From: Amoebophrya sp. A120
Lineage: Eukaryota > Protista > Dinoflagellata
NCBI GenBank assembly: GCA_905178155.1
Contig: CAJINV010000014.1
Location: 1,567,984-1,631,983, forward strand
Length of the DNA stretch: 64,000 nucleotides
Direction of reading: 5' to 3'
Position 1 is the first letter of the stretch; every line of letters starts with the position of its first letter. The notes below the pieces were generated by a model that was not told the origin of the DNA, did not search any database, and was given only the letters and a program-made list of their open reading frames with translations. The position numbers were made by a program, and so were the translations under genes. This document shows positions 281-60,080 of the stretch, piece by piece.

Positions 281-1375
281 CGAACCACCACCAACTCATC
301 CTCCTCGGTGATGTCTTCCTCAACAAAGTCAAAGATGAGGTCGGGGACTATCGGCTCTGCCTACTCCTCCGGTAGTGAGCTCTTCGAGCTTGGTATGCAA
401 TACAAATTTCCTGTACATGTACTGCAAGTTGGAGCATGCCACTTGTCATGCTGAATAGGATTGGAAGAAAAGTTTGCCATGCAGAAACCGCATTTGTACG
501 TGTGCGGGAAATTATTTACTGTGGATACTTGGAAGAAATAACTCAACAAACTTAAACTCATCTTCTCCCGCCAAGCCGCCCAACAAGCAACAAAACGATC
601 CTGATTTACTATTTACGTCGTCGACCCCGAAAAAGGACTCGAAAACGAGCATCAGCTCCTTTGACCACATGATGAACAACTACTCGCCGACCTTGCTGAA
701 GACTCTGCTGAATTTCTCACCAACGGCCAGTATCGGTTCCTCCTGGAAAATATGCATTGCAAAAGTATCGCTATCGTACTAGTAGTATAAATTGCATTAA
801 AGAAAGAAAAATGGAACTTGTAATGCTAATTCAGGTAAAAAGGTAGGTTTGTCATGCAAGATTACAATGAATTAGTAATGGCACGAGTGCGATACTTTTG
901 CAAAGGATAGAAAATGTTGACAAGTGGAACAAAAAGCCCTAGCAAAGTTCCAACTGCGAAGGTGATGCCGCTATCTTCCACTTCTTGCGACAAGAGCAGT
1001 AAAAACGCTCTGGACTTCATCGACGTCACCGCAGCCGCGTTTCGGGATGAGGTCGCACCACTGGTGGAGGATAGCATCGATGAGACCACATCTCGGGATG
1101 TTCTCGCGGAAATGCAGCAGAGCAAATTCACCATCCGGGAAGATTCTTTTAGTAAGGCGGAGAAGGAGGGAAAACTGAAACTATCTGCCAGGAGCCGGAG
1201 CAAGTTGTCTCTGTCCAATACGAAGAGTAGCCGCAGCCCCTGCGGGTCGAGCAGAAGTACCAAGGAGCGTGGCACAGCGTCGTCGTCGGGCCGGAACTTA
1301 AAGAACACTCATAGTCGGCGAGGGAAAAGTTTGTGTTGCTGTTTCTACGACGAGAACGAGAACAACGTGGAGTAG
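281..1375 (+). CDS. 3' part of a multi-exon gene, Ser-rich hypothetical protein (begins upstream, probably before the window)
   Basis: ORFs 182-454, 474-782 and 914-1375 join in frame after removing elements 394-527 and 751-909 plus one DR each (...ELG/RNNS...SSWK/MLTSG...NNVE*). Confidence 0.7.
394..527. mobile_element. IR/DR introner-type non-canonical intron
   Basis: DR CTTGG at 389-393 and 528-532; ends TATGCA...TGGATA; frame restored. Confidence 0.8.
751..909. mobile_element. IR/DR introner (TGCAAAAGTATCG family)
   Basis: DR GAAAA at 746-750 and 910-914; TIR core TGCAAAAGTATCGC / GCGATACTTTTGCA; no GT-AG register possible. Confidence 0.85.
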
Positions 1376-3689
1376 AACAGTATATGTATAGCATACTGAA
1401 ACTGAAACTGAAGCTGCTCATCTAGCTCTATTGGGAGGGCGGGGTCAACAAACATGACTACTTAGCCATCTTCTGACGGTTCGAAGTTCGAGGAAATATG
1501 TAGTAGTGGTCCCATTCAATATTCAAATTTATGTTTACTTTTTTGTGAAGATCATTTTTGGTTTCATCTATGCCCAAAAAAAGTGCGATTCCATCTGCAT
1601 CCAGATCCAATGTCTTTGATGAAGCGTTGACATGATACACACAGCCCACTGATTAGTACCACCCCAAGCGCTATCGCCATACCACGCACACCTCAAGGTA
1701 GAACTGAAAAAGTATTAGCTCCACCCCAACGAACGAGCTGCATCAAGTACTTATAGATTTAGATACAATTTTCCTACTAGACGGCTATCCAGAAAATACA
1801 ACTCTACTCAGAGCTCGCGATGTCACGATTCGATAAGTATTGACTTCGCGCTAGTAGCTTCTTCTGTACGCGGTTCGCTACGTTTTCGCAATGATTTTTT
1901 TCGACGTTTGAAAGTAGGTTTCTCGTCGCTCGAAGATCTTCATCGCTACGTGTACGTCTACCTGATTGACACAACGAGGACAACATCATCGACACAAACT
2001 CTAATTCTAAACTTTCAACACAGGAGGCGGGAGTCTTGAAGCTTCAACTATTGAGAACGAGTTTCTTTTTCTACTGCTATTTTACTCCTAGTACTACCTA
2101 CTTCGGGTTCGAACGCAGCCACATCAAAGAAATTTACGCATGCTGATGCTATCGAGCATTTTTCAGATTGATTTTCCAAGAAAAAGAAACCCGCCAAGAA
2201 ATAATCCCCACACAGATTCATTGTATGATAGAGCGTAAGTGTAAGTTTACGCCTGCGTCTTTGGTTTTGACATGGTCATCGTCCTTAGCTTGAGCAACCA
2301 GTTATTTTTGGCTGAACCACCAGCCGCGTCCGTTGGTTTGCTTCTTGTTGAGAGCTCGCCTTTTCATCTGAATAGAAATACTAGAAAATGTCTTTGGAGG
2401 GGAGGAGTATTTTTTATCCCTTGTTTTTTTTAGATGAAGCAACCCTGGAGAAAACGACTCTTACTTTTTGAAACTGGTATTGGTTTTGAATTTGACGAAC
2501 CTCCTGTGGGAATGCGAATTGTTTGACAGTTTTTTTCCTAGTATCGGGAAGGTTGAAAAAATACAAATGAAAATATTATATATGATTTATGATTTTTTAT
2601 GTGCCCCATTTTGAACACACCACGAATAGTTAAAGTGAAGAATGTGCAGGCGCTGGGTATGGTGTAGACCACAAAGTCGCTACTCGAACGAAGGCAATTA
2701 CCACCAAATTCATTCTTGTAGGAAAACCGTGATTGAAGATAATTTAGCACTGAAGGTTGTCTTTGAAAGCGAGGCCTCGGCTTGCTTGCTCCTGGCCGAA
2801 GCTCGCACATTAATGTGCTATCTTCGAAGTCGTCCATCCCCAATGAATACGAACATCTATAATTATGTGAACAAATTATATAGAATGCATGTAATTGGCA
2901 AACTACAGATAGAAGTGGCCTCCAGTCCACGCCCAGCTGATATTTGGAAGTGACGACGCCGAGGAACGAGACGAAGATTTGTACCGTGCACGAATGCATC
3001 ATCAATTTTGTCATTGACAGAAGCATCACATGCCCGATGAAGCTGATTAATTTACTACATCGGAGATAATGCACAAGACGAGATGAAAATAAGCGGGACA
3101 AACACCATATCCTCCAAATCTTTTAGCACAAAAAAACGCTGAATGAATCTGAAAAGAAGATAGAAGCTTGATTATAAGACTAACGACAGATCTTGTCCGC
3201 TCGTCCAAAGCAGTCGCAAATGCTTCAAATCGGGTGGCGTCGCCGGCGTCTTTTGGCTTTTTGAATAGGCGAAAAAAGAAGAAAGAGAGCGAGAGAGGAG
3301 CAGCCCCCAAAAGGAACGAAGTCAAAGTTAGTCCTAGTTTCTTAAGCCATTCGTAGTTGAAATTAAGAAAGTCAAAGAACCAAGTTGCATTTATTTCAGC
3401 TAGATATTGAAATGTTGAAGTTGAAGATATTACCGACGCGTGTCGGCACGCCCTTCCGCTGTGCTTTGCCATTGCCGTTGCCTATGTAGAACGAGGAAGA
3501 GGAGCATGTTTATGCACACGGAAATCATGGTTTTATTCCTGAGAGAAAACAAATTTGGAAGCAGCTGAAGTGTGATATAGCTGCAAGGAGGTCGTGCGTC
3601 TCTAATGTCACAGCGAACTCCAGCTATGCGTCTGTTGTTGTAGCAGCGACATAAATATTGATTTACAATAATTTGCAGCGGCTGCAGCA

Positions 3690-6600
3690 GTGACCGAAAC
3701 CGAGATAAAAATGCCGGAGCCCATCGGCAATCCGAAGGCGTCTCGGTTGCGCCAGCCCCAAACGACTGTGGGTGGAGTGGTCCTTCACACTTCTAAGAGC
3801 ACGACCACAAACGCAGGCATACACTACACTTCAAACCGCACCAGCGACGCGCACGACTTCCAGCGGGAAATCGCCACTTTTGCCAACACGAAGATCCGGC
3901 AGTCCGAGGGCTGCTACTCGCAGCGGGGTAGCGACGTGATTGCTCCTTTTTCCAATGTATTCGCCGGCGGTATAACTCCTGCTGGGTTTGACGAGGAGGA
4001 GGAGCTAAAGCTATTGCAAAAAAGCAAGATGGGTCCTCGTGGAGGTAAAAAGACCAAGCGCCGGCTGTCGCCCAATGTGCTCGAGGACGAGGAAATCATC
4101 ATCAATGGGGATGAAAACTATCCACAAAAAAAAACCAATCCACATCCATTTCCATTTTTTGCATGACAAACACATGATTTGATGCGTGTTTTGCATGACA
4201 AATTGGATGTGGATGAGTTTTTTTCTCTGGATGAAAACAGTGTTGACGATAAATCCACGACACAGGACCAGGAGGAGTTGGAGGGTGAACTGGATCATGA
4301 TTGCGGCGCGCTTGCTTCCGGCTGCAACAGCAACTACGTCTACAACGACAACGAGGAACTACACCATGGCGACCGAGTTTTTGGGAAGACGTACGCAGCT
4401 GCTTACGATGTGACGCAGGTCCACGACCCCGTGGGACGAGACGATGAACGTCGCCATCAAATCTATCAAATCGAGGAAAACTACGAACTTTCGGACGTCG
4501 ACCAAGGTGGAGAGCATTATGCGGACGAGGAAGATTTTGTCAGCGCGGCGGAAAGTCTCGCAGCGTCGACTTTAAGCTTCGGGATTGGAGGCCGCTTGCC
4601 GGCAGAGGGGGGAGCGATGGCAGGCATGCTTTCCAATAGTACCTCCTCTCTTGCAGCAGCGGCTGCAGTAGGAAAAGCCGGAGCAAGTGCAGCATCCAGC
4701 CTGATTGATGATACCCGGCGGGGGGCCACTTCGTACAGGACGGTGGTCGAGGTCGACGACCAGCAGCATGTTGACACTTTTGATCGTGGACAAGGTCCCG
4801 AAATAAATGAGGCACATACTTTTGTAGACGGTCGTGCCTCCTGTAATGACCACGTCGCGCCGCCGCGCAGCTCCAACCACGAGCATCTACTTTTAGAACA
4901 TGCTCCTACTTCGACTTCCAGTCTGCTCGAGGAACGATTTTACAGTTGCGCCGACCGGGAGCAAGTTTTGCCAACGAGCGCATCTGCTTCGGAAATTACC
5001 AACATAAAAAGTCAGGAGCCGCGCGACCGAGTGGATGAAGTTGAAGAGCTTCATGACTTGGGTATAGGATTAGAGTACAAATAAAAATTCTGATGAAGAG
5101 TATCTCGACATCAGAAAAGAAGAACAGATGTTGACGCAGGTCATTTTTTTACTTAGTTACTCTGTTCATACTAGTGAGTCTGGTCTCTTCGAAGACGAAG
5201 ATCCTTGTATCAGTGAAAACAATCTTCAACAACAAACAACAAAACTCTAACTCATGCAGGCCACGGCCGACGTGACGAAGGGCTGCTACAGCAGCCACTC
5301 GGCCCCAAGAACATGATGGGAGAGGACATCTTCAACGGCGCTAGTACCTTCTATGAAGCACATCTTGACCTTGACATCCAGGCGGAGCAGCAACGCCACA
5401 CGACTTCCATCGACGAAGTGGAAGACAACTTGGATGATCTGATGGAAGACTGGGAGCCTCTGGACATCGTGGAGCTGGAGGCGAACTCCACCATCGACGA
5501 ACTGTGGACGCTCTTATGAGACTGCACAACTCCCCCTCCCCCTCATTTGTGATGCAAAATACCAAACTCACACCTTGCTCGTAAGCCCTGTCAGCATAAC
5601 AATTTTTGAAACCTCAAATAGTACTACAATCCGCAACCGCATGTTGTACATTTGTCATGCGAAAGCCCCTTTTCTATTTCTGTTGTTGCTTGTGTTTCTT
5701 TTCATGCAATACAAATGAGGGGAGGGGACGAAGTTGTGCACTCTCATAGTTCTTGTTCCAGAACTACGATTGGCTTCGACAGGTGGAAAAATCGCTGAAG
5801 CGGACGAAGGGGAGCATCGATCGGTTGGCGATGAACAGCGGAGCGACGATGAACAGTTCCTCCTGCTTTAGCTCTCCAGACGGAAAGATGACAGCTGCTA
5901 GTCGCACCCCCACGGGAAAGATCATGAACCGCAGCACAATTTCTAGCAACAGCAAGTCCTTCCTGAATTCGAGTTTTGACTCGTCCAGCGTCGCGGCGGC
6001 CTATAATTCTCCGGGTGGTTATGGTGGGTTTGGGTCGTTTATTTCAACGTCACTGAGAGATGGTAGAGATAAGATGAAAAAAACTAGCACCACGTCACGA
6101 AACAACAGCATTCGGGAGGGGTTCGCGGGCATCCGCTCGAGTTTGCTGGATCCTCACGGACGGCAGAAGACGTTTGAATCCACGCCGACGAAAATTCAGA
6201 TGAACGCGTTCGAAGAAGAGGAAATCTACTTGGAGGAACGCAAGTCTTCTACGTCTTTTAATACAACGACGAGGAACAAGACTTCTCTCAAGCAAGTGCC
6301 AAATCGGAATCCAGCATCCCGGAGCCGCAGCAGGAGCCCAACCACCAGCTTCCTGAACAAAACGGGAAAGAATGGTGCGAAAAAAAATGATAACAGCGTC
6401 ATGAATATTAAGTCTCCTGCTGCCACTGTACTTCTGTCGGAAAGCGAGGCGAAGCAGATCGTGAATCGGCTCTACAACGGTGGGCGTCCTGTTATACCGA
6501 ATATTATGCATGGGGCTAGCATTAGCAAGCACCGCTCTACTGCGGCTTCTATCCACCAAGTAGATCGGCTGCACACATTGGCAGAGGAAGGCGAAGACGC

Positions 6601-15100: not shown

Positions 15101-15258
15101 AAAAATCAGCACTGCGAATTCCATTTGCATTTGCATGAGTGCTTCCAGTAGTTGTGCGATGCTTTTGCAATTCATACAGGCTGAGGCTAGACAGCTCCGG
15201 CGATCAGGCGCGGCTTTACCAATCTAAAGGGAGACCAGTGCTGCCGATTAACTTTTGA
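12107..15258 (+). CDS. Pentameric ligand-gated ion channel-like membrane protein, six exons
   Basis: Removing five elements gives ...VHIGRDPTFYIYKAVVPLEAIFIFTCMIYATPVSDVSGRLQLLFGMFLTGFAIQWTILDRLPRVPYLTVLDKFIFMVVVILLTVG...DFCFCAFVLSAFAFGHW...: pre-M1 R-x-P-x-FY, M1, M2, the M2-M3 LPRVPYLT-x-LD motif, M3 and M4. Hydrophobic N-terminal signal-like segment; stop TGA at 15256-15258. Confidence 0.75.
13466..13727. mobile_element. IR/DR introner (GTCTGGGTCTGGAA family)
   Basis: TIR TATCAAATGCAAAAATGTCTGGG / CCCAGACATTTTTACATTTGATA; DR GTGTG/GTCTG. Confidence 0.85.
13778..13921. mobile_element. IR/DR introner (TGCAAAAGTATCG family)
   Basis: DR TCGTA/TCGTG; ends TATGCA...TGCATA; interior similar to the 31414 and 51635 copies. 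Confidence 0.85.
13989..14251. mobile_element. IR/DR introner (GTCTGGGTCTGGAA family)
   Basis: DR GTCTC/GGCTC; GTGTCTGGGTTTGGA / TCCAGACCCAGACAC; join SDVS/GRLQ. Confidence 0.8.
14463..14769. mobile_element. IR/DR introner (GTCAGGAT-GAAAT family)
   Basis: Perfect 17-bp TIR TATGGAAGCGTCAGGAT / ATCCTGACGCTTCCATA; perfect DR AGATG. Confidence 0.9.
15030..15176. mobile_element. IR/DR introner, also readable as a GT-AG intron
   Basis: DR CAGGT/CAGGC; TGCAAAAG / CTTTTGCA TIR core. Confidence 0.8.
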
Positions 15259-15810
15259 TAGCGATCATGTTGCTACAACATCTAACTTCTGGCGTCGACG
15301 TACCATAAATATTTTACGAGCGCTTACGAGCCCGCGACGGTGACACCAGCGTGCCTCGTGTAGTAGAGGACGAGTCGCTTTATGGACGAGCGTCCTGGAA
15401 TTTTTGTGCTAGTACACGTGAATTTCCACAACTTCTGTGGTCGAGGACCACTTCTTCTTCGCGTTGATCACCTGCTCTTCAGAGGCAGAACCATAATGCA
15501 AACACGCCGTCCAGTGACTAAGTGTTTCTTTCGAAAACTAGTGTTTTTTTCGAAAACTTGTGGTTATGGTTTTGTACTAAACCACAAGCTTTCGAATTTG
15601 GATTTGCCTGCTTCGGTAAAAAAAGGTGAACCGCGGTCGGTTGGCGAAGGAGGTTGTGAGTTTTGACATCTCGGCTGCGAATTTGAAGATGATCCTCGGA
15701 AATGCGCAGATCGGCTCTTGAAGTTCGCGGATCGGTTTTTTCGGTCCGGAAGTGCAAACTTTTCGATCATGCCAAAAATGCAAAAGTGTAGTTCTAATAT
15801 CTAAAAACAG

Positions 15811-22770: not shown

Positions 22771-22843
22771 CAAGAGCTGAAGCAGGCAGCTGCTGGGGCT
22801 ATGTGTTGAGCTTTTTAGGACTTGGTAACTAGACTGAGGTACC

Positions 22844-47439: not shown

Positions 47440-47934
47440 CCACGCAGTGTGGTACTACATCTAAAAGTATCTCAATCTCACTCTACAAAGTTAAAGTAGC
47501 TCCTTGGGATAATAAAATATTGCTACTAAAAATAGGAACACGACCCTGACCCTGAGTTTCTTTCTTCGCCGCCGCAGCGGGCTTCGCAAGGCGGCGTACG
47601 AATCGCAAAAAACGTCTGGCTCATCATCATCTGGGGGAGTGCTCAAGTTTGTCACGCTCGGCTATCAAGATAGCTGTCAAGTCGGTCCGTCACGCACGTT
47701 GCCTAAAAGGCCGTACTTTCCGTCATGCAGCAGCGCAGCTTCAAGCTTCACTTGCAAAAGAAAAAATATTTATAAGTACCCAGCAGCAACTCAAAGTTGA
47801 AATGATGTTTGGCCTTCGCCTTGGCCATCATCAATGATTCTTATTTGGGCGTCCTCGTGTTGATTTATTTTTTCCAACCAGCTCCATCACGTTCACGTCT
47901 CCAGACCTGCCAGACATATTTGCAAAAATGCATA

Positions 47935-50900
47935 CAAGATGATGAACAACAACAAAAACTCCGGCACCACTGGCGGTTCCTGGGCGGATTATAGCCCGAC
48001 AGATAGCCATATCAAATTAGCAAACATTCCTGGACGTCTGGAAACTTGTGTTTCTGATGGTTTTTCTCCCGCGCATGATCGCAGAGAAGGAGCCACTCCT
48101 ATTGCGGCATATTAAGAGTAGCATGCTCAAAACTTACTCAGGTGGCAGCTTATTTGTTCGGATTCATTTGTAAAAAAGACGCATCATAAGGTTGCAGTAA
48201 TATCATAGCATGACGAAAAACAAAAAGCTAGCGCTAGCAACTTGTTGCAACATTCACGCATCACAGATCTTCCTGTCCTTGACATTCTGCATGACAAATC
48301 CAGACCCAGATCTTCGGTATTATTTGCAATGCATAAGCCAAGAAGAATACGAAGAAGAGGAGGAGCAGTACTACCAGGCACCGGAATATGCAAGAAGAAA
48401 TAAAGAAAAACAACTCTGTAAAAGTGTATGCGAAACTTTTTGCTCCTGCAGGACCAGGAGACGATGCAAAACAGTTGCGGAAACAGTCACAGAGTGGTCG
48501 CCAACCTCTTCATGCTTGTTCAACACATGTTGCATCTTCACGGGCTAGCTAGTAAAACATCACGACCACAGCACGTGTTTTCACTTACTACCTGCGCATG
48601 ATGGAATAAAGTGTTTGCTATGAACACGATCAGGCAAGCGAAACAGATACAGTTTTTCTTTCTTCTCCTGGATGCAGAACTGACTTTTCTCCCGCGTGAA
48701 GTGCACCATCCCAAGGTCGCCATTGCGAAATCCACGGCCGCCGTACCCCCCGGGGGGGGCCGACTTTCGGAGGGCCCCGGCCGGGTGGACGCCTTCGCGC
48801 GGCGCCCCGCCTCGCGCTGCCCCCTTGGGGGGGTCTTCGACACCCCTTCGGGAAGTCTCCGGCACTTCGGGGGGCGGCCTTCGATACCCCTTGGATGGGT
48901 GGGGCCTCGGGCATCGCGAACTTGCAGGGCGTTTCCGCTTCCATTCCGCCCGGCCCCGCGGCGGGCCTTCGGGGCGCCTGGGGGGGGCGGGCGCCTTCGC
49001 GCGGCGCCCCTTCGAGTGGTACCTGCGGGCGCCTTCATGCGGCGCCCCCCCTCGCGCACGCTCCCCCTCGCGGGGTGGTCTGTAGGACCCCTCGGCGGGG
49101 GCCTCGGGCATTGCAAGCCCTCAACAGGTTTCTGCCGCCAATCCTTCGGGTGGGCAACCTTCGGGGGGCCTCGCGCGGACACCTTCAGGCGGCGCCCCAT
49201 CTCGCGTTACTCCCTCGAGGGGGTCTGCGATACCCCTTGGGGGGGGGCCTCGGGCGTCGCGAATCAACGTGAAGCAGGTTGCTGCCTTTACAGCCCCTTC
49301 AGAGGGCCCAACCTTCGGGAGCATTTGGTCGCCAGCATTTACCGTGGGCCTGTCTTGAATGGTGTTGATTCATTCCTATGGCGGCTCCCTGTCCATCAAG
49401 ATAGGGTCGGCCAAACGGCCGACCCCCATCTTGTAAACATCACGACACGTGTTTTCTAGTACTGCGCATGATGGAATAAACAACAGGCAAGCGAAACAGA
49501 TACAGTTTTTCTTTCTTCTGGATGCAGAACTGACCTTTCTCCCGCGTGAAGTGCACCATCCCAAGGTTGTTGTGGCGACCAACGGAGCTCCTGCGGGGGA
49601 GATGCACCTGCACCAGCAGCTGCAGCCGGTATCCAGGAAAAAACACCCATCCCAATCCATTTTTTGCATGACAAACGCGGGACTCTATGCATGTTTTGCA
49701 TCACAAATTGGATGGATATGGGTGTTTTTTCCTGGATAGCCGGGCATGATGATGTACGGCAGTGGTGGTCAAGTATCCAACTGTGGAAAAACTATGTGGT
49801 CCCCAAACTATCCGATATTAGTCAGGATGAGAGAGAGAGTTGTTCCGCATGACAAACACAAAGAAAGGTAGACTTGCATGACATCAAGTTGTTGTGGTCA
49901 CTTTCCTTGCAATAGGGTACTAGTTCCCTGCAGCTGCTTCAATTCCTTTAAAAGCAGGACACCTGTGGGGTCGTGGGGAAGTTACTTATTTTTGCACAGG
50001 ATATAATCAAGACGGTCGCGACCTTCCTTCTGCGTCGCAACAGCACGGTGCAACTACATTCGGAGCAGGTGGCCACCAGGGCGCGGGTGGAAATATATCC
50101 TGAGTAAAAACATCACCAAGTTGCAGAATTATCCAAAAGATCAAGATCTGCAGCGAGTCACGCATGACGAATGTTTGTCAGCAGTGTTTATCTTCGTAAT
50201 GGAAAGGCTAGCAAGTTTATGTTGTCCAACACTAACAGCTGTGGTGGATCTTCACAAAGTAGCCAACTCCTTATCCACACCCTGTCTACGGCGTTACAAA
50301 TACCAGCACACTACTTTTAGAAAATCCACTCATGGGCGGGAAGATGCGCATTTACGTGTAGTTGTAGTTCTTGTAGAGGCAATAATTTGCTGGGAAGGTC
50401 CGGTGTAGTTGTGGACCTGGACGTTTTTACGAAGGATAAGATAACTCCATTCCCAACCTCGCAAGTGCGGACCGTGGAGGACACGAGGCGACGCAGATGA
50501 AGGATGTTATGCATTACAAATATGTCTGGCTTTGGGACTGGAAGTGGAACTACATGATGAATGCAGATGTTTATTGTCGTGTTGCACATTTTTCATGGTC
50601 CATGCCAATGGCAATGTAATGGATGTCGGGGACGATGCATCATGTCCTCCTAGCATCACACGTAGTATTATTACATTTCCGAGAGTAGTTCTTTTCATTT
50701 TCTGCATAAAAACGAACTGTCTCTAAAGGTGGCGAAAATACTAGCGCAGCCCCCTGGCTTTGCCTTTCATGTATGACAGATTTTTGTGTGCTGACCGACG
50801 TATGAGGGCATCGCAAGAAGTGAGTTTGCATCCACTGTGCAGCTGCAGGCCCAGACACATTTGCAACGCATAAATGTGGTATTTTTTTTGCACAAATCTA

Positions 50901-53900
50901 CTTCCGTATGCGTACAACCACCTACAAAAAAAAAAAACAGTACAGTATGACTATCCTCCCTACTGATACTGGTTCTGGTGGTGGTGCGGTTGCACAACCT
51001 CCACCTCTTGCCATTCATTTATTTTCATTTTGCTTTAAGTTTGTGTACAACATGAACATGTTGATCATGATCGTCTGTCAGAAAACTTCTACACATTGTC
51101 GTTCCCACAACAGGTCCGCATGCCCTCTATGACGAAAGCAATGGACGGCTTGGTTTCAGCAATCATGATGCAGCCAACAACAGCTGCCGCTGCGCCGGCT
51201 TATCCATTGCAAGATATTCTGCTTGGGGTTGGGTCTGGAGGATTGCCGGATTTGCCACACAGCAGTGGTTTATTTGGGTCTTGCAAATGGTCTGGAACAT
51301 AAAATGCACGGGAAGTAGGCACTGACTTACAGGCTTAACGCAGACTGCGCGATGCCTACTGTCCCGCATAACGAGTAGAGGTACGCTCACGCAGCACAAA
51401 TTTTTGTGGCTGGCTCTCCGGAGGGAGTTAATCTTCCTTAGTTTCTTGTACGAGCATGACATTTATTTTCATATACCTCCTCCAGACCCAGAGCCCATTG
51501 TTTGCAGTCCATACGGCTTTATCTGCGCCAATCACTTCTACACCGAAGACCGCTCTGACAACGGCTTCCTCGACCTCTTTGCTGCCAGAAGAAGGTGGCG
51601 GTGGGAAGATGAGCATGAGCGAAATCATGACGGGTATGAACTGCAAAAGTATCGTACTCGCATAAATGCATTACAAATTTCCTCAGCATGAGAAAAAAAT
51701 TTGTAATGCGGATTTAGCTTCAGAAAAAAATTTGTATATGCATGACTGCAATTACTACGAGTACGAGCACGATACTTTTGCACAGGATAACGGGGCACGG
51801 TGGGCAGCTGCAAGTGCAACAACATCTTCACCATCAGCATCAGGATGCTTATGGAATGCATGGCACCACTAATACTACCTTTGCTTCCACCACGAAAACA
51901 GATAAGAGGCACCTCGAACAACATCCACAAGAAACTTCTCTCGCTGAGGACCGACAGGTGAACGGTCAATATGAAAAATTGCAAAAGTTGTAATGTCGCA
52001 CTAGCCCCTGCCCCACAGCCAATAGGGGATGCATTTTCTTTTACAAGTTGAATTTGAAATTTCTTCAGCATCACAAAGAAATAACGCACTTTGACTCTGT
52101 CTTGGTGTTGGAGGTGAAGAGTTTCTTATTATTTAAGAAATGAGCAGGACTGCGACTGGTGTTATGCATGATTTGGAGTTCTGCTACTATGCAGCACGCT
52201 TGATGCGATTGCTTTTGCTATGAGTGCAATGCTTTTGCACAGGATTCTGACACTGCTCAACACGAGACCGCCACGTCAACAACTTCGGGTTCCGCCAAAC
52301 CGTCTTATGACCTGCAGAATGCGACAGCCATGTCTGAAGAAGATCTTATCACGTGCAAATAGGCTCCTCCTTGAAACAAGTCTGGACCTGCTTCGTGTAT
52401 GGGGTCGTCAACGTTGTATTTGCCTCAGACCGTAAAAAAAATTCTGCGCGCATTTTTTCGCGGCGCAAAGCTAGTAAACCTGTGCACGCTAGTGAGGGGC
52501 TGACTTGAACGCGGTTTGTTTTAGCTAGCTTGTCAGCAGCAGTGCTCTAGTAGGTAAGTGAGTATTGACGCGAAGGGGGGTGGGGCGCTGGGGGTTCTTC
52601 TGTGGCTGTTGTTTTCACCTAGAAAACGCCGGGCGCGCGCAATATTTTGCTCCGCTTCCCCGATTGCTCTCTCCGTGCAGGTATTTGCCGCTATGGCCTG
52701 GATCAGCGTGTGAGGCTGGCGCCCCGAGAGATGTCTACACAGGCCCTGGCCTCGTCGTCTCTAGCGGGCACCACGCATATATGTTGGCCGCGAAGGCCTT
52801 TCCGGAGCCCTTCCAAAAAGGGGGGGCCGGAGGGGTGCCCGGAACCCTAAAAAAAAGCCTATTGATTTTTCTTCGAATCACGATGGTGCTACCCCTCCCC
52901 AAAAGGGGTCCCGGAACCCCTCTGGGAACCCTTCCCGAAAGGCTCTCGGGCTTTTCGCATTCTGACGAAAAAGCCGCAAAGGCAAAAAGCGCGCGCGCCT
53001 GCCGGTACACGCGCGCACAGTTGCGCCAACTTAGAAACAAGGGAAGGCGCAGCCGCGGCCGGTTCCGTTTGCGCCCTCGACTCCGACCGACTTGCACAGA
53101 TTGAGGCCCATTGTCTAGCGGCTGGACTGCAAGAGGACCTGCTGCAGCACCTCCAAGCTGCAGGGGCACTCCGAGGCAACTCCGTGGAGCAGCAGCGCCG
53201 GATAGCTCCGTCTTTAGCCACTGAGAAGTGCTGCGAATATGCTATCTATTTCATTAGGTGTGCAACATAGTGGGGGGCTATACGTGTGCAACATGATGGA
53301 TATCAAATACAAAAAAAGGCGCGCGGAAAATTTTTTACAGCTTGAGGCAAATACAAGTTTGACGACGCCATATCGTGTTCTTGCTGATGAGTAACTAGTA
53401 CTTACCTGCATTGCAGAATAGCCGCTTGCGCGGCATATCAACAGCAGGAGAAGTTTATTTGCGTGTTTTTAGCTTCCTGCGTGATTTGATATTGTTTTTG
53501 ATTTCTATGTAGCACAATGAAGAACATGTTGATCATGATCTTCCACTTCGCACAACAAATAAACAGCCACTACTAGCTGCCAATCCACCTCTGTATCATG
53601 CTCATGCAATACAGATCTGCATCTTGCTCTCATGCGAATCTTGCATCACGAAGAAGAACCTAGACCCAAACACGATAATATTTGCAATGGTGCATAGATC
53701 TCCAGATACAACAGCAATTAGCAGCGAAGAAAAAGCAACAAGAAGAACAGGCCGAGTTTATTTCTGCGGCGGAAAGGGCGGCGCAGGTGAAGGCCAAAGC
53801 TGCAACCTGGAAGCCAAGTTTGCGGTTGCGGAGGTAAAAGGTAACGCGCGAGAGGGGAACTATTTTCGCGATAGGCAGTTCTTGAGGATAATTTATTTTT

Positions 53901-54025
53901 ACTCAGTGTACTTATTTAAACTTGTTGTTGTTTTTCAATCAAGATCTCATGGCATGCGTAAAAGGGTACTGAACAAGGCTACTGGACAAAAAGGATTGAA
54001 CTTTCTCTCGTGCTATCAATATTGA
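47935..54025 (+). CDS. Multi-exon low-complexity hypothetical protein (ends uncertain)
   Basis: In-frame joins across elements at 48010, 48387, 49630, 49774, 50096, 50508, 51201, 51635 and 52306 and a GT-AG intron 50879-51113. The join near 51970-52247 is unresolved. No domain recognised. Confidence 0.55.
48010..48335. mobile_element. IR/DR introner
   Basis: Perfect DR AGCCA; join PTDS/QEEYEE. Confidence 0.8.
48387..48674. mobile_element. IR/DR introner whose right end is duplicated at ~49433-49524
   Basis: DR CGGAA/CAGAA; AAAGAAAAAC / GTTTTTCTTT. Confidence 0.75.
48718..49432. mobile_element. Very GC-rich repetitive insert flanked by a long imperfect direct duplication
   Basis: Internal GCCTTCGCG / GGCGCCCC / GGGGGCCTCG units; 48552-48717 recurs at 49433-49567. 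Confidence 0.65.
49630..49738. mobile_element. IR/DR introner (short TATCCA family)
   Basis: Perfect DR GCCGG; perfect 22-bp TIR TATCCAGGAAAAAACACCCAT / ATGGGTGTTTTTTCCTGGATA core. Confidence 0.92.
49774..50003. mobile_element. IR/DR introner
   Basis: TATCC..TGTGGAAAAA / TTTTTGCACAGGATA; DR TCAAG recurs 3 nt beyond the right end; frame restored. Confidence 0.7.
50096..50438. mobile_element. IR/DR introner
   Basis: DR AAATA/AGATA; TATCCT..GTAAAAAC / GTTTTTAC..AGGATA. Confidence 0.82.
50508..50872. mobile_element. IR/DR introner (GTCTGGGTCTGGAA family)
   Basis: DR GATGT/AATGT; CAAATATGTCTGG / CCAGACACATTTG. Confidence 0.82.
51201..51513. mobile_element. IR/DR introner
   Basis: Perfect DR CGGCT; TGGGTCTGGAGGA / TCCTCCAGACCCA. 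Confidence 0.88.
51635..51789. mobile_element. IR/DR introner (TGCAAAAGTATCG family)
   Basis: Perfect DR ACGGG; near copy of 31414-31549. Confidence 0.9.
52306..53696. mobile_element. Expanded introner containing a nested TIR element (~52350-53465)
   Basis: DR CGTCT/GATCT; join AKPS/PDTTAIS. The nested ~60-bp TIR at 52398-52458 pairs with ~53311-53372. Confidence 0.65.
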
Positions 54026-54382
54026 TAACAAGAATCCCTCGTCCACCTCCTCGGCAGATCATGAATGCAGCCCGCTTGATTTCTTTTTTTGACGAATCAT
54101 GAGCATGTAATTTTTACCTACAAAAATCGACGCGTGTTTCAGTTTAAGTAATATATTTGTAGTATACATTCGTTAGTTTTAAAGCAAACAGGTGAAGAAC
54201 TCTTTGAGCAACCAAAGACGCTGCCATTTTGTTTTTTTCATCATTTTCGGTTCTTGTCGATGAGATAGAAATTTTCGCTTTTCAACAATGTTCTCGATGT
54301 CTTGATATTGATGTCTGCTGAAGAACTGATAGAGTACCATTATGCGTCGAAATGTTACTAGCGAAGAGCCGCTAATAATGTC

Positions 54383-54886
54383 AGAGTTGTTCATCTTTCG
54401 AGGAGAATGCAAGACTGCACTCTAGCGAAACGAAGAAACAAAACAGAAAACAAGACACACCCACGACGACCCGTCAGACTTTCTTTTTCAGTACTATCAT
54501 TATGATATCGCCATTGATGCTGGGGCTCGCTCCCTCCCCAGATCGAGAGCTTTTGCTTTTCACAAGAATTAGAAAAGTCGGCCGCGCCGCCGCCGCCTTC
54601 TGGTTTGCTGGGAAGTGAGTGGCATACCCTCGTCCCGACGTCCATGCTGCGTCCTCAGAAGTAGGGAGATCGTCCTCGGTCCTTGGTGAATAAAAATCGT
54701 ACTTAGAAGCAAGTCGAAACTATCGCTCCGCAGGTCGTGCTGACAATCCCGCCTGCTAGTCCTGTCGCAAAAACAAAACTAGAGCAACGCACGCGCGTCG
54801 GTGCATCGTGAAGGTGCTACTTGGATTTTTGATGAGGCGTAGTGGTTATTGTTTATTAGTCGACTTGTCCATCATGCGATCATCTG
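54383..54886 (+). repeat. Dispersed ~500-bp repeat, copy 1
   Basis: Collinear similarity to 60922-61447 (TGCAAGACTGC, CGACCCGTCAGACTTTCTTTTTCAGTA, CGTCCCGACGTCCATGCTGCGTCCTCAG). Confidence 0.85.
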
Positions 54887-56577
54887 GCTTTATTTCATTG
54901 CAAAGCACTTCGTGCGACATATACATAAGAAGTGTGCCTCCTAGTGATCGCTCCACGTGATCGGTAGTACGAGAATGGGCAAAAGTAAAAAAACAAATGT
55001 TGGCGCCGACGGTCGTCGGTTTCTCCTCGTCTACAACTGTGGCAAAGTCGTTGCTGCAGCATCGGTGTTTTTATTTCCGAAGGCATCGGTAGTACGTTGA
55101 CGCTGGTTCATATCTTTCTTGATCGATGAAGTTACCACTTCGCATAGCTTTTTCATTCGACCTGAGATACCATGAACAAGCCTCCTGGTAGAACAGTTCC
55201 CGCAACACATAACTTCTCCCGCAATTATTTTGCTAGATTGTTTGCGACCCTTTAAACTTGCAAACCTCTAAACCTCTGCGCCAAAGCTGGCACACTGCCA
55301 CTGCTAGAAGAAGTGTTTTGCTCTGCCTAGTCGCATTTCGACGAAGTTGAGTCAAGGTTGTTTCCCCTACCCCTTCTCTATTTTTTAAAAATAATTTTTC
55401 GCTTTGGACACCTAGAAGCCTCGTCGCTAGCCTTTCGAAATAGTTTTGGACCTTCTTCTTGCTAAACGTGCCAGCTTTGAGTATAGCGCTTTTTTGTTTG
55501 TTCATCTCCCTTGCTAAACATAGCAACTCTGGCCGTCTTCTTGCTAATCACTATAGAAGCAGCTCTAAGGACATTTATCCTTCGACTCTCGGCGTCCTGT
55601 TCTTAAATCAGGCTAGTTTATACCTGTGCTATTTTTATTCGTGTAATTCTCTTCATATTTGTTCTGCGCCTCCAACTCCCTCTTGACAATTTATTTGGAT
55701 TTCCCCGCCCTTCGCGTTTCCATACAACAGGCAGAATGCTAATGCAACGCATGAGAGTGCCAGGCTCGAAATTGACAAAGTTGAAAAAGTAGCAACATCC
55801 TGCAACGCAGAAAATCCGGGGCACAGAGTGCCAGTCTTGCAGAGCAGAAAGCGAGTGAATCGCAAATGGGTATGGGATTTAAGAAGCCCCAAAGTTTGTC
55901 AGTCATCTTATGGACCGCACTTAGAGTTTGCAACTTTGGCCGAGCTGCAATCTAGCTTAATATGCATCGCGAGTAATTATTTCAACTTTGTCGATTTCGA
56001 GCCTGACGGTTTCACGCAGCGCGCAACAGTTCTTCTGTTTGGCCTCGGGATAGCGACGCCTCCTGCTCCAGCAGCTGCAAAAATTTCTCTTACTTTATAT
56101 GGCGTTCTCAATGTTACATTCTCAACTGTTACATGATTTGTCATGCAAAATAAGCATCGACGTCCAGTCCACACGGTGCAGCTACTTTGCGTGACAAATT
56201 TCGGCAGGGCTACACAGCATGGGAATCTGTGCCGAATTTGTAACGCAAGAGTTGCAAGATCCGGCCTTTGTTTCTTGCTGTTGCCAGCATGGCAAATCCA
56301 TGTAACTCATATAGCTACAATAAAGCTCATCCCGCAGCCGTCCCAGGAGCTTCTTGTGGTTGTCTCTCGGTAGGGATCGCTTTGCCCGTGCGTATTCCAC
56401 TCAGAGTTTGCTGCGTAGGTGGTTACCGTTTGGAGCTTTTAGAATAGAAAGAAATGGGACGCCCTGCCCTTAGCCTTCCAACGTGACAAATGAAGTTGAG
56501 AACGTAACAAGTTGAGAGTGTAACAATTGAGAATCCCATACTTCAAAGCCTGGACGCAGCGGTGAAGCGGACTCCTG

Positions 56578-56904
56578 TATGGGTGTGTCAGGATTGAAAT
56601 CGAAAAAGTTGCAGCAGCTTGTAATGCATAAAATCGATGCCAAGCAATCGGATCCACGGTTTCTAGACGGTGCGCGAAAAATTTTGTCCGTACCGGAGGC
56701 CAGTTTGTCATGCTGTTTAGGGAAAAGGGAAAGGGGCTCCCCTCTGCGATGCTAATCAGCAGCCCAATTCTCCACCCTTGCCAGTGCTACAATGCCCCTC
56801 CCTTGCGTCCTCTGCAATAGAGGCAGTGTCTGCTTCTGCGTTGCATTTTATGCATGACAAACCATTTCCACTTTCAGGACGATTTCGATCCTGACGCACC
56901 CATA
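56578..56904. mobile_element. IR/DR introner (GTCAGGAT-GAAAT family)
   Basis: Perfect DR TCCTG; TATGGGTGTGTCAGGATTGAAATCG / CGATTTCGATCCTGACGCACCCATA. Confidence 0.92.
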
Positions 56905-58547
56905 TCCTGGCGTCAATGGTTACAGGATGCTGGCGATGGCCACGAGCATCTTGCCTATCGCATTAGCGTTTCCGCTGTTTTAGACTGGGCGAAACACCAG
57001 CCGTACTGGACGGAATTAGCTAAGACGCAGCCCAAGGAAACGGGCAAAGCGCTTCTTGAAGAGCGAAATTGCGAGAAATGTAGCACAGCTGACAAACCAG
57101 GGGCGTGGTGGAAAAGCAAGCTGGACGGCGACCTAGAGGAAATTGCGAAAATGTACACAGAGATTGCCCAACTGGACGGCGGAGTTTCTGCCGAGGTTCG
57201 AGAGGTCGTCACGCGGGCCGCGCAAAATATAAAAGAGGGTCTAACGGCCAGCAGGGTTCTGGACAGCAAGGCCCCGCCAGGGTTCTGGACAAGCCCGGAA
57301 GTCCAGGGCTCCTGTAGCGGTACCGTGCCACAAGAGGACGCCAACTTTTTGGAGCTGGGTCCGAATCGAAATCGTGACGATGTCTACCTGAAGCTGCTCG
57401 AATATGCGACGGAGCTGCCGAAGGAGCTCGCTGCGTGGCAACTCATGGACTACAAGCAGACAAGCGATGCCGTGACCAGAAACATTCGAAGCGCATACCT
57501 GACGCAGGCGACGATATCCGAGCGCATCGCAGACCACCGGATGAAGTCCGGGACTGATCATGGAGAAGATGCTGTAACTCAGTTTCTCCGAAGCACCCTG
57601 ATGAATACCAATCAAGTGGTCACAATTGCCGACGCCGCGAGGGTGGCGGTAGATAGGTATAGGCCTGCAACAGGCAGCCAGGTCCCGGTCGTGCCGATTC
57701 CCGCCGGAACTGTCGCGCTTTTCGGTATCACTCGAGCAAATGTTTGCGGTAGTACACAGCCGCTCACTGGTGAAGGTCGTCCCTCGGACTTGGAGAGATC
57801 CCTGACAGAGATGGCAGAGAAAGCTGAATATTATCGCGGACTGGATATCGCCGGCAGTATTCAGGAAGCTGATGAAGAAGCACAAGCGGTAGACAGTAGA
57901 AGGGCAAGACTTTCGTGTCTTCACGGTGTGAAGTACATGCTGGAATTTCTTGAAGGTCTTGTCCACGATAAAGAAAGGTTTGCGCCTGATCGCCCCTTCG
58001 TGTTGCGTATCCACATGTGGGAGGGCGTGGCGCGCCAACTGACTCCACAGGCCGCCCACTTTTACGAGTCGCTGCATAAGGGGCTCTACGACTTTTACGA
58101 TCACCCACGGCGCTCGCGCTAATTTTTTCAAGCGCATTCGCCTCGAGATTGGTCATACCCCCAGGCTGCCCTTTGTGGTCGCTGTCTGACCTCCCCAAAA
58201 ATGCCGACGCCGAGCGAGAGCCGCGAGATCTGCTTGCTCCTCAGCCAAAAGGTCAGCGTGAAAAGATTAACTACTGGAACACCGCGGCTGGACTTAGCAA
58301 CGAAACGCCGCCGAAGCAGAAGTCGAAGGGGAAGGCCAAGGCTGAGCCTAAGAAGTGCCTGGAGGAGGGACAGTTCGCGCGCCTTCTCCTGAGCATTCCT
58401 TGGGCTCAAAAAGTCTGCAGCGTGAACGCGCACTCCAACATGATGATCCAGCCAGGATATAACGTAGAGCGAGGAAGTGCAGAGAGCCCTCGCGACGATT
58501 TTCAACACAGAACAGCACTGCCCCCGGAAGGAACGATATTACAGTGA
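56905..58547 (+). CDS. Divergent adenosine-deaminase-like (amidohydrolase barrel) coding region, apparently frameshifted
   Basis: Exon 56905-58122 has GLDIAG and LRIHMWEG. RLEIGH follows in a second frame (~58134-58156) and VNAHSN in a third (ORF 58149-58547). Motif order mimics ADA GxDLAG...HAGE...RIGH...CPxSN. Confidence 0.45.
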
Positions 58548-59204
58548 AAAATGCCCCCACCCCCAAAGTTGCAACTATTTCTGAAGCGAACAAGTTTCCA
58601 AATGAAAAAGAAAACTCTTTGTCATGCATGATATGAAAGGAGTACGAATCTTTCTGATGCAGAGTCTACGCGTATAAAGCACCGCTTGCATGAGCATGAC
58701 GCGTGCCGCTCTTGTTGCTGGGGTCTTTTGCAATGCAAATTTTTGCTATTTGCGAGACGATTGAAAATGATCTGCGACGCTGATAGAAGATGCAAGGGGC
58801 CCAGTGCTTCACTTGGAAAGGGTTGCGGTTGCACCACAAATGCTCCCAAGTTCTGGGGCAGTAGCGTTTTTCATTGTAATAGTCTGAGTTGCAGCCTCAG
58901 TGTAGGCGTTGACGGCGCGGGCGCTTTGCGATTAAACAACAGCGCCGAGGCTGTTCGTGCCATGTTGTCAAGATATTTTGGAATTGTTTTTCCTGAAGAC
59001 CACGATAGGAGCGCGCAAGCGCACTCTGGTCGAATCTGCGCCGCTGCAGGTGGATCACCAACGCTGTCCCCCTGCTCGAGCTTGGATAGAGCCACGTCGC
59101 CTATTTCTCCCACACAGAGCAACAAGCGAAGCCGCAGCAAGAGCCGCAGCGGGAACGAGAGCCGCCTCCGCCACAGCGGAAACCGCAGCAGGAGCAGCAG
59201 CAGG

Positions 59205-60080
59205 GGCCGTCGCGTGAAATCTGGGACGGCGGGTGTCCGCCCCGTTTCGACACATTGCGCGAAAGTAGAGCATACCAATCGCAAACGTTTCTGGGTCTGG
59301 AAGGATGCAGCTTCTTGTCGCGCGAAGTCTCCACGACAAAAAAATCTGTATTGTATGAACGCCAAAAGCTAAGCCCACTTGTTGCCATGCAAAAGGCCGA
59401 CTTTTCGCGCGGGATAAGCATGAGGAAGGTCTCGCAGCATCTGTGATGCTTGTGTGTGCATTCCAGACCATGCGCATGGTCCGCGAGCTGCACGAGGACA
59501 AGTTTCGTTGCACCCTTCCAGACCCAGACACATTTGCAATGGATAGAAGACAGCGCACAACAGCCTATGTTGGGGAGGGCGACGACCGACACTCAGCTAG
59601 AGCTAGAAGCACACCGACAGCGTCGCTCTCGGGCCCGTGACTCGTCTGACTTTAGCCGCAGCAGAAGCCGTTCCGTGAAATCTGGGGGGATGAAGCATTG
59701 TGCGAATATCAATTGCAGATATGTCTGGAGCTCGAACAAGGAAGGACGCAGCTTGTCGTGCGAAATCTCCACGAAAAAAAATCTGTGTTGCATGAACGCC
59801 AAAAGCTGCCCACTTGTGGCTCGTCTCCAAAAGGCTGACTTCTCGCGCGGGATAGCCATGAGGAAGGTCTCGCAGCATCTGTGATGCTTGTGTGTGCATT
59901 CCAGACCATGCGCATGGTTCGCGAGTTGCACGAGGACAAGTTTCCCACCCTTCCAGACCCAGACATATTTGCTCTGGATAGAAGACAGCGCGCAACAGCC
60001 TATGTTGGGGAGGGCGACGACCGACACTCAGCTAGTACCCCGACAGTGTCGCTCTCGGGCCAGTGACTCGCTTGACTTTA
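59205..60080 (+). repeat. Tandem duplication (~435-bp period) of an introner plus adjacent exon-like sequence
   Basis: Element right ends at 59545 and 59980 are both followed by GAAGACAGCGC; interiors share long identical stretches. Confidence 0.88.

What the first reader, a model, noticed from the sequence alone, without database searches (positions are those of the whole stretch)
394..59980. About 40 TAT...ATA inverted-repeat insertions with 5-bp duplications must be removed precisely, many without GT-AG signals
Seen: each element is DR(5)-TAT...ATA-DR(5), with arbitrary DR sequence (GAAAA, AGATG, CACGT, ACGGG, GCCGG, TGGGC...). Deleting element plus one DR restores the frame, including through recognisable channel motifs. 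For 751-909, 14463-14769, 46403-46744 and 51635-51789 none of the six possible registers gives GT/GC-AG. At least six TIR families share the same 3-nt ends. Known: IR/DR non-canonical introners have been reported in Amoebophrya, and I am not aware that their removal mechanism is resolved. Inference: boundaries are set by terminal pairing plus the duplication rather than by U1/U2 consensus, which implies a dedicated excision or splicing system.
Basis: partly seen in the sequence, partly recalled or inferred. Interest (0 to 1): 0.9.

Follow-up and report, generated by a model that had tools for sequence, protein, structure and literature searches.

The report
Fixed-register splicing of hairpin transposon introns
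In a parasitic marine dinoflagellate, dozens of small transposon copies sit inside genes and are cut out of the messenger RNA at one fixed position counted from their TAT...ATA ends, ignoring the usual GT-AG rule; the elements are already published, but the fixed cut position, which likely reflects an altered spliceosome, makes their unknown removal mechanism testable.

Summary
The feature is real, and the elements are already described. The window is Amoebophrya sp. A120, and these are its TAT-type introners (Farhat 2021, PMC7789003). I catalogued 48, of which 40 have strict TAT...ATA ends. The duplication is exactly 5 bp but perfect in only 21 of 48. DNA contigs keep the elements. Transcript contigs (one sample) skip element+5 nt at 23 of 23 resolvable junctions. 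What I add: where the repeats differ, 14 of 14 informative junctions fit one register, exon|N-TAT...ATA-NNNN|exon, three of them exactly. The paper calls the border unknown. The duplication is not needed, since elements with 1/5 or 2/5 matches are cut at the same place. One family is spliced in both orientations. An available in-frame GT-AG is ignored. One strong hairpin that lost its TAT/ATA ends is retained. Best mechanism (inferred, 0.55): a relaxed U2-type spliceosome using +2U/+3A and an A at -7 as branch point. Main rival (0.3): a hairpin-guided nuclease/ligase. The scan noted similar introns on other genomes, none on this one.

The parts
394..527 (+). introner, repeat CTTGG 5/5; predicted intron 393-531 GT-TG
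   Evidence: sequence and frame only
751..909 (+). introner, repeat GAAAA 5/5; predicted intron 750-913 AT-AA
   Evidence: sequence and frame only
4119..4233 (+). introner TAT...ATG, repeat 5/5; predicted intron 4118-4237
   Evidence: sequence only
5515..5748 (+). introner, repeat 4/5; predicted intron 5514-5752
   Evidence: sequence only
12107..15260 (+). host gene, pentameric ligand-gated channel-like protein P0001 (667 aa), five introners; end coordinate approximate
13466..13727 (+). introner, repeat GTGTG/GTCTG; intron 13465-13731 GT-CT
   Evidence: deposited protein allows registers 3-5
13778..13921 (+). introner, repeat 4/5; intron 13777-13925 AT-GT
   Evidence: deposited protein
13989..14251 (+). 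introner, repeat 4/5; intron 13988-14255 CT-CT
   Evidence: deposited protein allows registers 2-5
14463..14769 (+). introner, repeat AGATG 5/5; intron 14462-14773 GT-AT
   Evidence: deposited protein
15030..15176 (+). introner, repeat 4/5; intron 15029-15180 TT-GG
   Evidence: deposited protein
31414..31549 (+). introner, repeat 5/5; predicted intron 31413-31553
   Evidence: frame only; no spliced contig listed
31620..31872 (+). introner, repeat GGAGG; predicted intron 31619-31876, GT-AG by chance of the target
   Evidence: frame only
32204..32527 (+). introner, repeat 5/5; predicted intron 32203-32531
   Evidence: frame only
32588..32873 (+). introner, repeat 5/5; predicted intron 32587-32877
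   Evidence: frame only
34433..45018 (+). host gene A: 4380 nt plus poly(A), 1084-codon ORF, 13 introners and 3 GT-AG introns
35368..35614 (+). introner; intron 35367-35618 AT-AG
   Evidence: RNA, length sum only
36011..36272 (+). introner; intron 36010-36276 CT-TG
   Evidence: RNA, adjacent pieces, skip 267
36646..36834 (+). introner, repeat CTATG/CTTTC; intron 36645-36838 GT-TT
   Evidence: RNA, adjacent pieces, registers 3-4
37379..37623 (+). introner, repeat 4/5; intron 37378-37627 AT-CA
   Evidence: RNA, gap arithmetic, registers 0-4
37712..37946 (+). introner, repeat GGTCG/GCCCC (2/5); intron 37711-37950 GT-CC; in-frame GT-AG alternative unused
   Evidence: RNA, gap arithmetic, registers 3-4
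38554..38861 (+). introner, repeat 4/5; intron 38553-38865 AT-TG
   Evidence: RNA, gap arithmetic, registers 4-5
38917..39218 (+). introner; intron 38916-39222 AT-CG
   Evidence: RNA, length sum only
39288..39576 (+). introner; intron 39287-39580 GT-AA
   Evidence: RNA, length sum only
39616..39900 (+). introner; intron 39615-39904 GT-GA
   Evidence: RNA, length sum only
40420..40548 (+). introner, repeat AAGGC/AGTTC (2/5); intron 40419-40552 CT-TT
   Evidence: RNA, adjacent pieces, registers 4-5
40842..41228 (+). introner; intron 40841-41232 GT-TC
   Evidence: RNA, piece end and length sum
41367..41574 (+). introner with CAT start; intron 41366-41578 GC-GG
   Evidence: RNA, length sum only
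41612..41742 (+). introner; intron 41611-41746 TT-AT
   Evidence: RNA, length sum only
45544..54387 (+). host gene B: 2549-nt contig, 637-codon ORF, 15 introner-derived and 2 other GT-AG introns
46101..46231 (+). introner, repeat 3/5; intron 46100-46235 CT-TA
   Evidence: RNA joint, registers 2-4
46403..46744 (+). introner, repeat CACGT; intron 46402-46748 TT-CG
   Evidence: RNA joint, skip 347
46781..46888 (+). introner TAT...ATG; intron 46780-46892 CT-CA
   Evidence: RNA joint
46945..47096 (+). introner, repeat 4/5; intron 46944-47100 TT-AT
   Evidence: RNA, gap arithmetic, registers 3-5
47597..47934 (+). decayed introner TAC...ATA, repeat 1/5; intron 47596-47938 is GT-AG in register 4
   Evidence: RNA joint, exact; right end recognised after seeing the joint
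48010..48335 (+). introner; intron 48009-48339 AT-CC
   Evidence: RNA joint
48387..49524 (+). long introner TAT...ATG with internal insertion; intron 48386-49528 AT-GA
   Evidence: RNA joint, registers 2-5
49630..49738 (+). introner, repeat GCCGG; intron 49629-49742 GT-CG; in-frame GT-AG (49629-49739) unused
   Evidence: RNA joint, skip 114
49774..50003 (+). introner, repeat TCAAG/TAATC (2/5); intron 49773-50007 GT-AT
   Evidence: RNA joint, register 4 exactly
50096..50438 (+). introner, repeat 4/5; intron 50095-50442 AT-AT
   Evidence: RNA joint, registers 2-5
50508..50872 (+). introner; intron 50507-50876 TT-TG, followed by a 2-nt exon and a GT-AG intron
   Evidence: joint 50507>51113 equals this model
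51201..51513 (+). introner; intron 51200-51517 TT-GC
   Evidence: RNA joint
51635..51789 (+). introner, repeat ACGGG; intron 51634-51793 GT-GG
   Evidence: RNA joint, skip 160
51970..52246 (+). introner TAT...ATT, repeat 2/5; intron 51969-52250 AT-GA
   Evidence: RNA joint, registers 3-4
52347..53696 (+). outer introner; intron 52346-53700 TT-TC
   Evidence: RNA joint, skip 1355
52398..53372 (+). 975-bp introner nested in the previous one, own repeat TCGTG
   Evidence: sequence; a 429-nt contig fits inner removed and outer kept (inferred from lengths)
55750..56016 (+). degenerate element CAT...ACG, repeat 4/5, strong hairpin, retained in the transcript
   Evidence: unbroken piece 55201-56096 in X5 only
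56098..56540 (+). introner, repeat 4/5; intron 56097-56544 AT-TC
   Evidence: RNA, gap arithmetic, registers 4-5
56578..56904 (+). introner; intron 56577-56908 GT-CT
   Evidence: RNA, gap arithmetic
58537..58881 (+). introner with repeat 1/5, downstream of the main ORF; intron 58536-58885 AT-CT
   Evidence: piece ends at 58535; restart at 58886 inferred from bin depth
59271..59545 (+). introner with CAT start, repeat 1/5; predicted intron 59270-59549 GC-AG
   Evidence: sequence only
59707..59980 (+). introner, repeat 2/5; predicted intron 59706-59984 AT-AG
   Evidence: sequence only

Best explanation
These are small non-coding inverted-repeat transposon copies with 5-bp target duplications that are removed from the RNA in one fixed register, exon|N-TAT...ATA-NNNN|exon, likely by a relaxed U2-type spliceosome that reads the element's ends instead of GT-AG. 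Shown: element+5 nt is skipped; the cut keeps four bases of the upstream repeat and one of the downstream one; repeat identity and element orientation do not matter; GT and AG are not enriched. Inferred: the first two bases of TAT act as the +2U/+3A of the 5' splice site; the first A of the terminal ATA (position -7) is the branch point; the 3' splice site is set by distance, six bases on; the hairpin brings the ends together in place of the undetected U1. Because the two ends are mirror images and the register removes exactly one repeat length, a new insertion in either orientation would restore the original mRNA.
For: Fixed register: 14 of 14 informative junctions include register 4 (chance 6e-7 under random registers). 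The register was written down, whose eight held-out junctions all fit (3e-4). Rebuilt transcripts match contig lengths, 4380+8 A = 4388 and 2549 = 2549. Opposite orientations are spliced: 38554/38917 against 56578, and 46781/40420 against 49630; in the second assembly 55:35, 13:17, 5:7 and 10:10. For the spliceosome: +2 is T in 45 of 48 elements and C in the other three, each after G. Four of five ordinary GT-AG introns in the same genes start GTA. One decayed element is GT-AG in the same register (47596-47938). In the second assembly, changes at the third terminal base fall at the 5' end rather than at -7 (8:2 by locus orientation, 10:1 by element orientation), and 7 of 10 elements with a changed 5' end have G at +1 against 32% overall, p=0.016. 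Pure pairing would be symmetric. Published: A120 keeps most spliceosomal proteins and U2, U4, U5, U6, with U1 undetected; its nine commonest non-canonical sites all begin NT; Stentor branch A has a 5-nt tail; the U2 spliceosome removes non-GT/AG introns in Fritillaria.
Against: No lariat, branch or inhibitor data were available. There is no selection for canonical bases: G at +1 in 19 of 48 (p=0.08), AG in 5 of 48 (3.9 expected), both in 6 of 258; mutated repeats do not drift to AG (4 against 5) or to G (6 against 4). The bases before the -7 A do not resemble a YUNAY branch consensus (recalled). A stable hairpin would hide both proposed signals and need unwinding. The asymmetry counts are small, rest on a coding model for orientation (some loci discordant), and G is also high at repeat position 3 in the same set (6 of 10). 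RNA support comes from assembled contigs of one sample and three plus-strand genes; 7 of 23 junctions rest on length arithmetic; the retained-hairpin case is a single element in one run.
Confidence: 0.55

Rival explanations
1. A non-spliceosomal, hairpin-guided endonuclease and RNA ligase cuts one base before TAT and four bases after ATA, as is suspected for euglenid nonconventional introns.
For: Fixed offsets from a terminal stem; indifference to +1, -2 and -1 bases; both orientations work; 27 of 32 RNA-supported elements have arm-pairing z below -2.5; an in-frame GT-AG is ignored. Euglenid introns have a similar staggered geometry and are released as circles (review).
Against: The strongly paired 55750-56016 is retained while weakly paired 37379, 48010, 51970 and 52347 are spliced. 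The end asymmetry and the G-rescue of changed 5' ends point to donor-like reading. 47596-47938 is GT-AG in the same register.
Confidence: 0.3
2. One reading: terminal pairing plus the 5-bp duplication together define the boundaries, for example by recombination or strand switching between the repeats.
For: 38 of 48 elements keep a 4/5 or 5/5 repeat, and the skip always equals one repeat length.
Against: Exact register-4 cuts at 1/5 and 2/5 repeats (47597, 58537, 49774); crossing between repeats would scatter over registers; an element with hairpin and 4/5 repeat is retained.
Confidence: 0.05
3. The joints are reverse-transcriptase template switches across hairpins flanked by short repeats, not real splicing (recalled artefact class).
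For: Hairpin plus short direct repeat is the recalled signature; only cDNA-derived contigs were available.
Against: One fixed register, joints without repeats, long ORFs only after removal (1084 and 637 codons), a protein that aligns with relatives without a gap through the second and third insertion sites, and a strong hairpin that is not skipped.
Confidence: 0.04
4. The elements are excised from DNA, like ciliate internal eliminated sequences.
For: Transposon-like ends and scar-free removal.
Against: DNA-like run X1 has contigs running unbroken through eight whole elements at depth 39-45, the same as flanks. X1 may be the assembly's own source, and 283 joints were not shown, so rare or stage-specific excision is not excluded.
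Confidence: 0.02

Closest known systems
Introner elements among the non-canonical introns of Amoebophrya sp. A120 (Farhat et al. 2021, PMC7789003)
   Same: Same strain; inverted repeats starting TAT with an A-run about seven bases later; 3-5 nt direct repeats (5 bp in their Fig. S19 legend); removal from RNA; many families.
   Different: The paper says splice sites are variable relative to the hairpin and the border is unknown, and places the repeats 1-5 nt from the splice sites. Here the register is fixed, the duplication is exactly 5 bp but dispensable, and both orientations are spliced.
A120 introner families in Gozashti et al. 2025 (PMC12130899)
   Same: TIR DNA-type introners of the same genome.
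   Different: In the 22 of 58 A120 rows I saw, large families carry mixed splice-site calls and superfamily 'Unknown'; no fixed register is given there.
Non-canonical introns of Fritillaria borealis
   Same: Transposon-derived, with inverted repeats and duplications, non-GT/AG.
   Different: They have preferred ends (AG-AC, AG-AT) and a conserved U1, and U2-spliceosome dependence was shown; here only +2/+3 and the ATA are constrained and the machinery is untested.
Euglenid and diplonemid nonconventional introns
   Same: Terminal pairing, short repeats, no GT-AG.
   Different: Euglenid stem is +4..6 with -8..-6 (CAG/CTG) and the products are circles; here it is +2..4 with -7..-5 (TAT/ATA) and the products are unknown.

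Membership tests
Amoebophrya A120 introner elements | Occurs in strain A120 | tested here: met
   Window protein is 100% identical to a record named Amoebophrya sp. A120
Amoebophrya A120 introner elements | Inverted repeat starting TAT, variable stretch, then three or more A | tested here: met
   Position profiles
Amoebophrya A120 introner elements | 3-5 nt direct repeat at the borders | tested here: met
   Exactly 5 bp
Amoebophrya A120 introner elements | Removed from transcripts with non-canonical ends | tested here: met
   23 junctions
Non-autonomous TIR DNA transposon (MITE-like) | Terminal inverted repeats, constant duplication, many dispersed copies, no coding capacity | tested here: met
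   ORFs in the long elements have no Pfam hit
Non-autonomous TIR DNA transposon (MITE-like) | Cognate autonomous element with transposase | tested here: inconclusive
   None in the window or 147 loci; the whole genome is not held
U2-type spliceosomal intron | GT/GC-AG ends | tested here: not met
   3 of 48 and 6 of 258 in register 4
U2-type spliceosomal intron | Branch adenosine and lariat; dependence on U2/U5/U6 | not testable with these tools
   Only indirect asymmetry at -7
Euglenid nonconventional intron | Stem at +4..6 with -8..-6 (CAG/CTG) | tested here: not met
   Stem begins at +2 with -5; definition from the review
Euglenid nonconventional intron | Released as full-length circles | not testable with these tools
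   No raw reads of this strain; X10 laid only 4 reads
Ciliate internal eliminated sequence | Removed from DNA | tested here: not met
   X1 contigs keep whole elements; one sample, joints table cut

The most novel reading that the evidence does not exclude
A120 has a second, non-spliceosomal mRNA cut-and-join system, or a spliceosome remodelled so far that it is blind to G+1 and to the 3' AG, which measures from transposon ends and turns any TAT...ATA insertion, in either orientation and even nested, into a scar-free intron. The probability given is for the non-spliceosomal form.
Probability: 0.3. Interest if true: 0.9.

Novelty: already known. Interest (0 to 1): 0.55.

Why it matters
The elements are published, but how they are removed is an open question, and the source paper left their borders undefined. 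A fixed register names the exact nucleotides to test: the first intron base, a candidate branch A at -7, and a 3' cut six bases later. It would also allow tens of thousands of annotated A120 intron borders to be corrected, if it holds genome-wide. It explains how a transposon can fill coding sequence at no cost to the protein. Either outcome of the lariat test is informative: a spliceosome that needs neither G+1 nor AG, or a second mRNA splicing system.

Tried and rejected
Element+2 register (G-TAT...ATA-G, canonical and in frame): my first idea, rejected because every resolvable skip is element+5, including 49630 and 37712 where it is available. Drift towards GT-AG: not seen. Stop-codon test of register in 47 imperfect elements of the second assembly: no power, one stop, under register 1. 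No run was on record as RNA; X3-X6 are judged RNA from a poly(A) end and skipped GT-AG introns. Gene at 31-33 kb: no spliced contig listed, nothing concluded. No whole genome held, so no genome-wide transposase search; long elements in the window and 147 loci have ORFs of at most 285 codons and no Pfam hit for those tested. Viral contigs: no match to one family's end pattern. Rfam: no match in the window. Candidates 55072-55442, 23123-23398 and 11824-11930 left out for weak ends or no repeat. Literature searches found no paper giving a fixed register for A120; Roy 2023 and Henriet 2019 were seen only as cited by others.


Full report
Observation. The pattern is real. A strict scan finds 28 TAT...ATA elements with paired arms and a 4/5 or 5/5 flanking repeat, against 0.4 in 40 local shuffles; no other terminal trimer exceeds 10. 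An end profile and the RNA joints extended this to a hand-curated set of 48, with ends TAT/ATA 40, TAT/ATG 3, CAT/ATA 2, and TAC/ATA, TAT/ATT, CAT/ACG one each. The repeat is exactly five bases long but perfect in only 21 of 48. None of the six registers is GT/GC-AG for the four named elements, and only 5 of 48 elements have any such register.

Identity. A window ORF matches a deposited protein named Amoebophrya sp. A120 at 100%. Removing its five elements gives that 667-aa protein exactly. Its C-terminal part aligns with five relatives, one carrying PF02931, and resembles PF02932 by features and predicted structure. Farhat et al. 2021 (PMC7789003; I read the abstract, sections 10-12, 16, 32, 35, 36, supplement parts 2-3 and passages, but no figures) describe these elements: inverted repeats starting TAT, 3-5 nt direct repeats, U1 undetected, mechanism open, and borders 'unknown'. 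The feature is therefore already known.

DNA or RNA. Contigs of the DNA-like run X1 pass unbroken through eight whole elements at flank depth, and summed depth over some families is thousands of times higher, as expected for many copies (rough, and X1 may be the assembly's source). Runs X3-X6, one sample, are labelled 'RNA?'. They show a poly(A) end at 45018 and skip GT-AG introns. They skip element+5 nt at all 23 junctions I could resolve: 16 directly and 7 by length arithmetic. Eight more elements are fixed only by totals: rebuilt transcripts are 4380 nt plus 8 A against a 4388-nt contig, and 2549 against 2549, with plus-strand ORFs of 1084 and 637 codons. In all, 32 of 48 elements have RNA support, 5 rest on the deposited protein (probably not independent of such RNA), 10 were not tested, and 1 is retained.

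The register. With identical repeats the cut cannot be placed; with diverged ones it can. Five junctions intersected at one register: four bases of the upstream repeat kept, intron = N-TAT...ATA-NNNN. I noted this before laying a second stretch. All eight informative held-out junctions fit (chance 3e-4 under random registers), as does the post-hoc 47597. Overall 14 of 14 fit, three exactly (47597, 49774, 58537; the last partly from bin depth). The eight directly observed informative joints alone intersect at this register. The resulting ends are arbitrary apart from +2 T: AT-TG, CT-TT, GT-AT, TT-CG and so on.

What sets the border. Not the duplication: elements with 1/5 or 2/5 matches are cut in the same place. 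Not nearby GT-AG: at 49630 and 37712 an in-frame canonical intron is available and unused, and 11 of 16 directly observed junctions have some in-frame GT/GC-AG pair nearby, used only at 47597. Contigs hide minor forms, so low-level use is not excluded. Not internal sequence: members of one family are spliced in opposite orientations. Not pairing alone: 55750-56016 pairs strongly (z -7.6) and has a 4/5 repeat but has lost both ends and is retained, in the one run that covers it, while some weakly paired elements are removed. The terminal bases and fixed distances from them remain.

Second data set. A motif scan returned 147 loci from one other public assembly (JACKZZ01 contigs) with the same families, up to 95% identical. 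In 304 elements found without a repeat filter the repeat is again five bases. After orienting 258 with a coding model, GT/GC (83), AG (20) and both (6) are at background, and elements lie both ways round. Changes at the third terminal base occur at the 5' end more than at -7 (8:2 or 10:1, by orientation method), and changed 5' ends mostly follow G (7 of 10 against 32%). These counts are small, orientation is imperfect, and another repeat position is also G-rich in that set (6 of 10). No RNA was available for these loci.

Mechanism. I favour a relaxed U2-type spliceosome (0.55). The element supplies +2U and +3A, shared with four of five ordinary donors here. A C at +2 appears only after G. The A at -7 is the better-protected end base. 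A 6-nt tail is close to the 5-nt tail of Stentor introns (PMC9505925, passages). Fritillaria shows that this spliceosome can process non-GT/AG introns (PMC13326754, introduction and passages). Against it: no trace of selection for G+1 or AG, no standard branch motif (recalled consensus), and a hairpin over both signals. A hairpin-guided nuclease and ligase, as discussed for euglenid and diplonemid introns (PMC11282704 section 6; PMC12621601 passages), stays open at 0.3. Template switching and DNA excision are unlikely. Mobilisation is inferred to be by an unidentified transposase. A 5-bp duplication would suit an integrase-like enzyme, and Gozashti et al. report an A120 inverted-repeat family with Copia-like ORFs (PMC12130899, passages and 22 of 58 A120 rows of a dataset), but I found no autonomous copy in the little sequence held.

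Novelty and limits. The system is known; the fixed register, the dispensable repeat and orientation-free splicing were not found in six library searches. Figures 3 and S19-S25 of Farhat et al., Roy 2023 and Henriet 2019 were not seen and may bear on this. PMC11453091, PMC10946202 were seen as passages, PMC9860276 as a listing only. RNA evidence is three plus-strand genes from one sample, so mirroring on minus-strand genes is untested. Earlier scan notes describe similar hairpin introns in other genomes, one with a position-set 3' site; none exists for this genome. Interest 0.55: a known system whose open mechanism now has exact coordinates to test.

Noticed in passing
window 52347-53696 and 52398-53372: An introner nested in another. 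A 429-nt contig in X3 and X4 fits inner removed, outer kept (76+353 nt). It may be a splicing intermediate or an allele lacking the inner element.
   Followed up: partly
window 50877-50878: An introner landed two bases from the end of an exon, leaving a 2-nt exon between it and a GT-AG intron; the model reproduces the observed joint.
   Followed up: partly
window 55750-56016: Degenerate element retained in the transcript and lying in the open frame 55687-56136, possibly exonised.
   Followed up: partly
window 23477-29903: Apparently intact Copia retrotransposon: 1821-codon ORF with RT and gag hits, LTRs identical over 235 of 235 bases, 5-bp duplication CTAAA.
   Followed up: partly
window 48387-49524: This long introner holds, by eye, an earlier copy of its own right end and next exon start (about 48530-48720, repeated at about 49430-49560). 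RNA uses the distal copy.
   Followed up: no
window 41796-44201: A 2.4-kb GT-AG intron filled with tandem arrays of 41, 106, 278 and 31 bp.
   Followed up: no
window 18476-22770: Two ORFs with recalled metallophosphoesterase-like motifs, separated by about 2 kb of tandem and inverted arrays (19112-21246). No Pfam hit for the domain.
   Followed up: no
window 16597-18201: ORF with recalled sirtuin-like motifs and no intron element; no Pfam hit at 0.01.
   Followed up: no
window 59200-60060: Tandem duplication of about 440 bp, each copy carrying an introner (59271, 59707) with poor repeats.
   Followed up: no
window 23123-23398, 55072-55442, 280: TAT...ATA-like pairs or ends outside the catalogue: one without a repeat beside the Copia element, one with a GTTTT repeat and weak arms, and one right end without a partner.
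   Followed up: no
PMC7789003 Table S4: The commonest non-canonical sites are all TT-xx in strain A25 and all NT-xx in A120, so T at +2 may be shared by both strains despite different element families.
   Followed up: no
L001-L147: A second public assembly carries the same families, in both orientations; two long copies (L033:3862-4492, L055:3001-3972) have no long ORF.
   Followed up: partly
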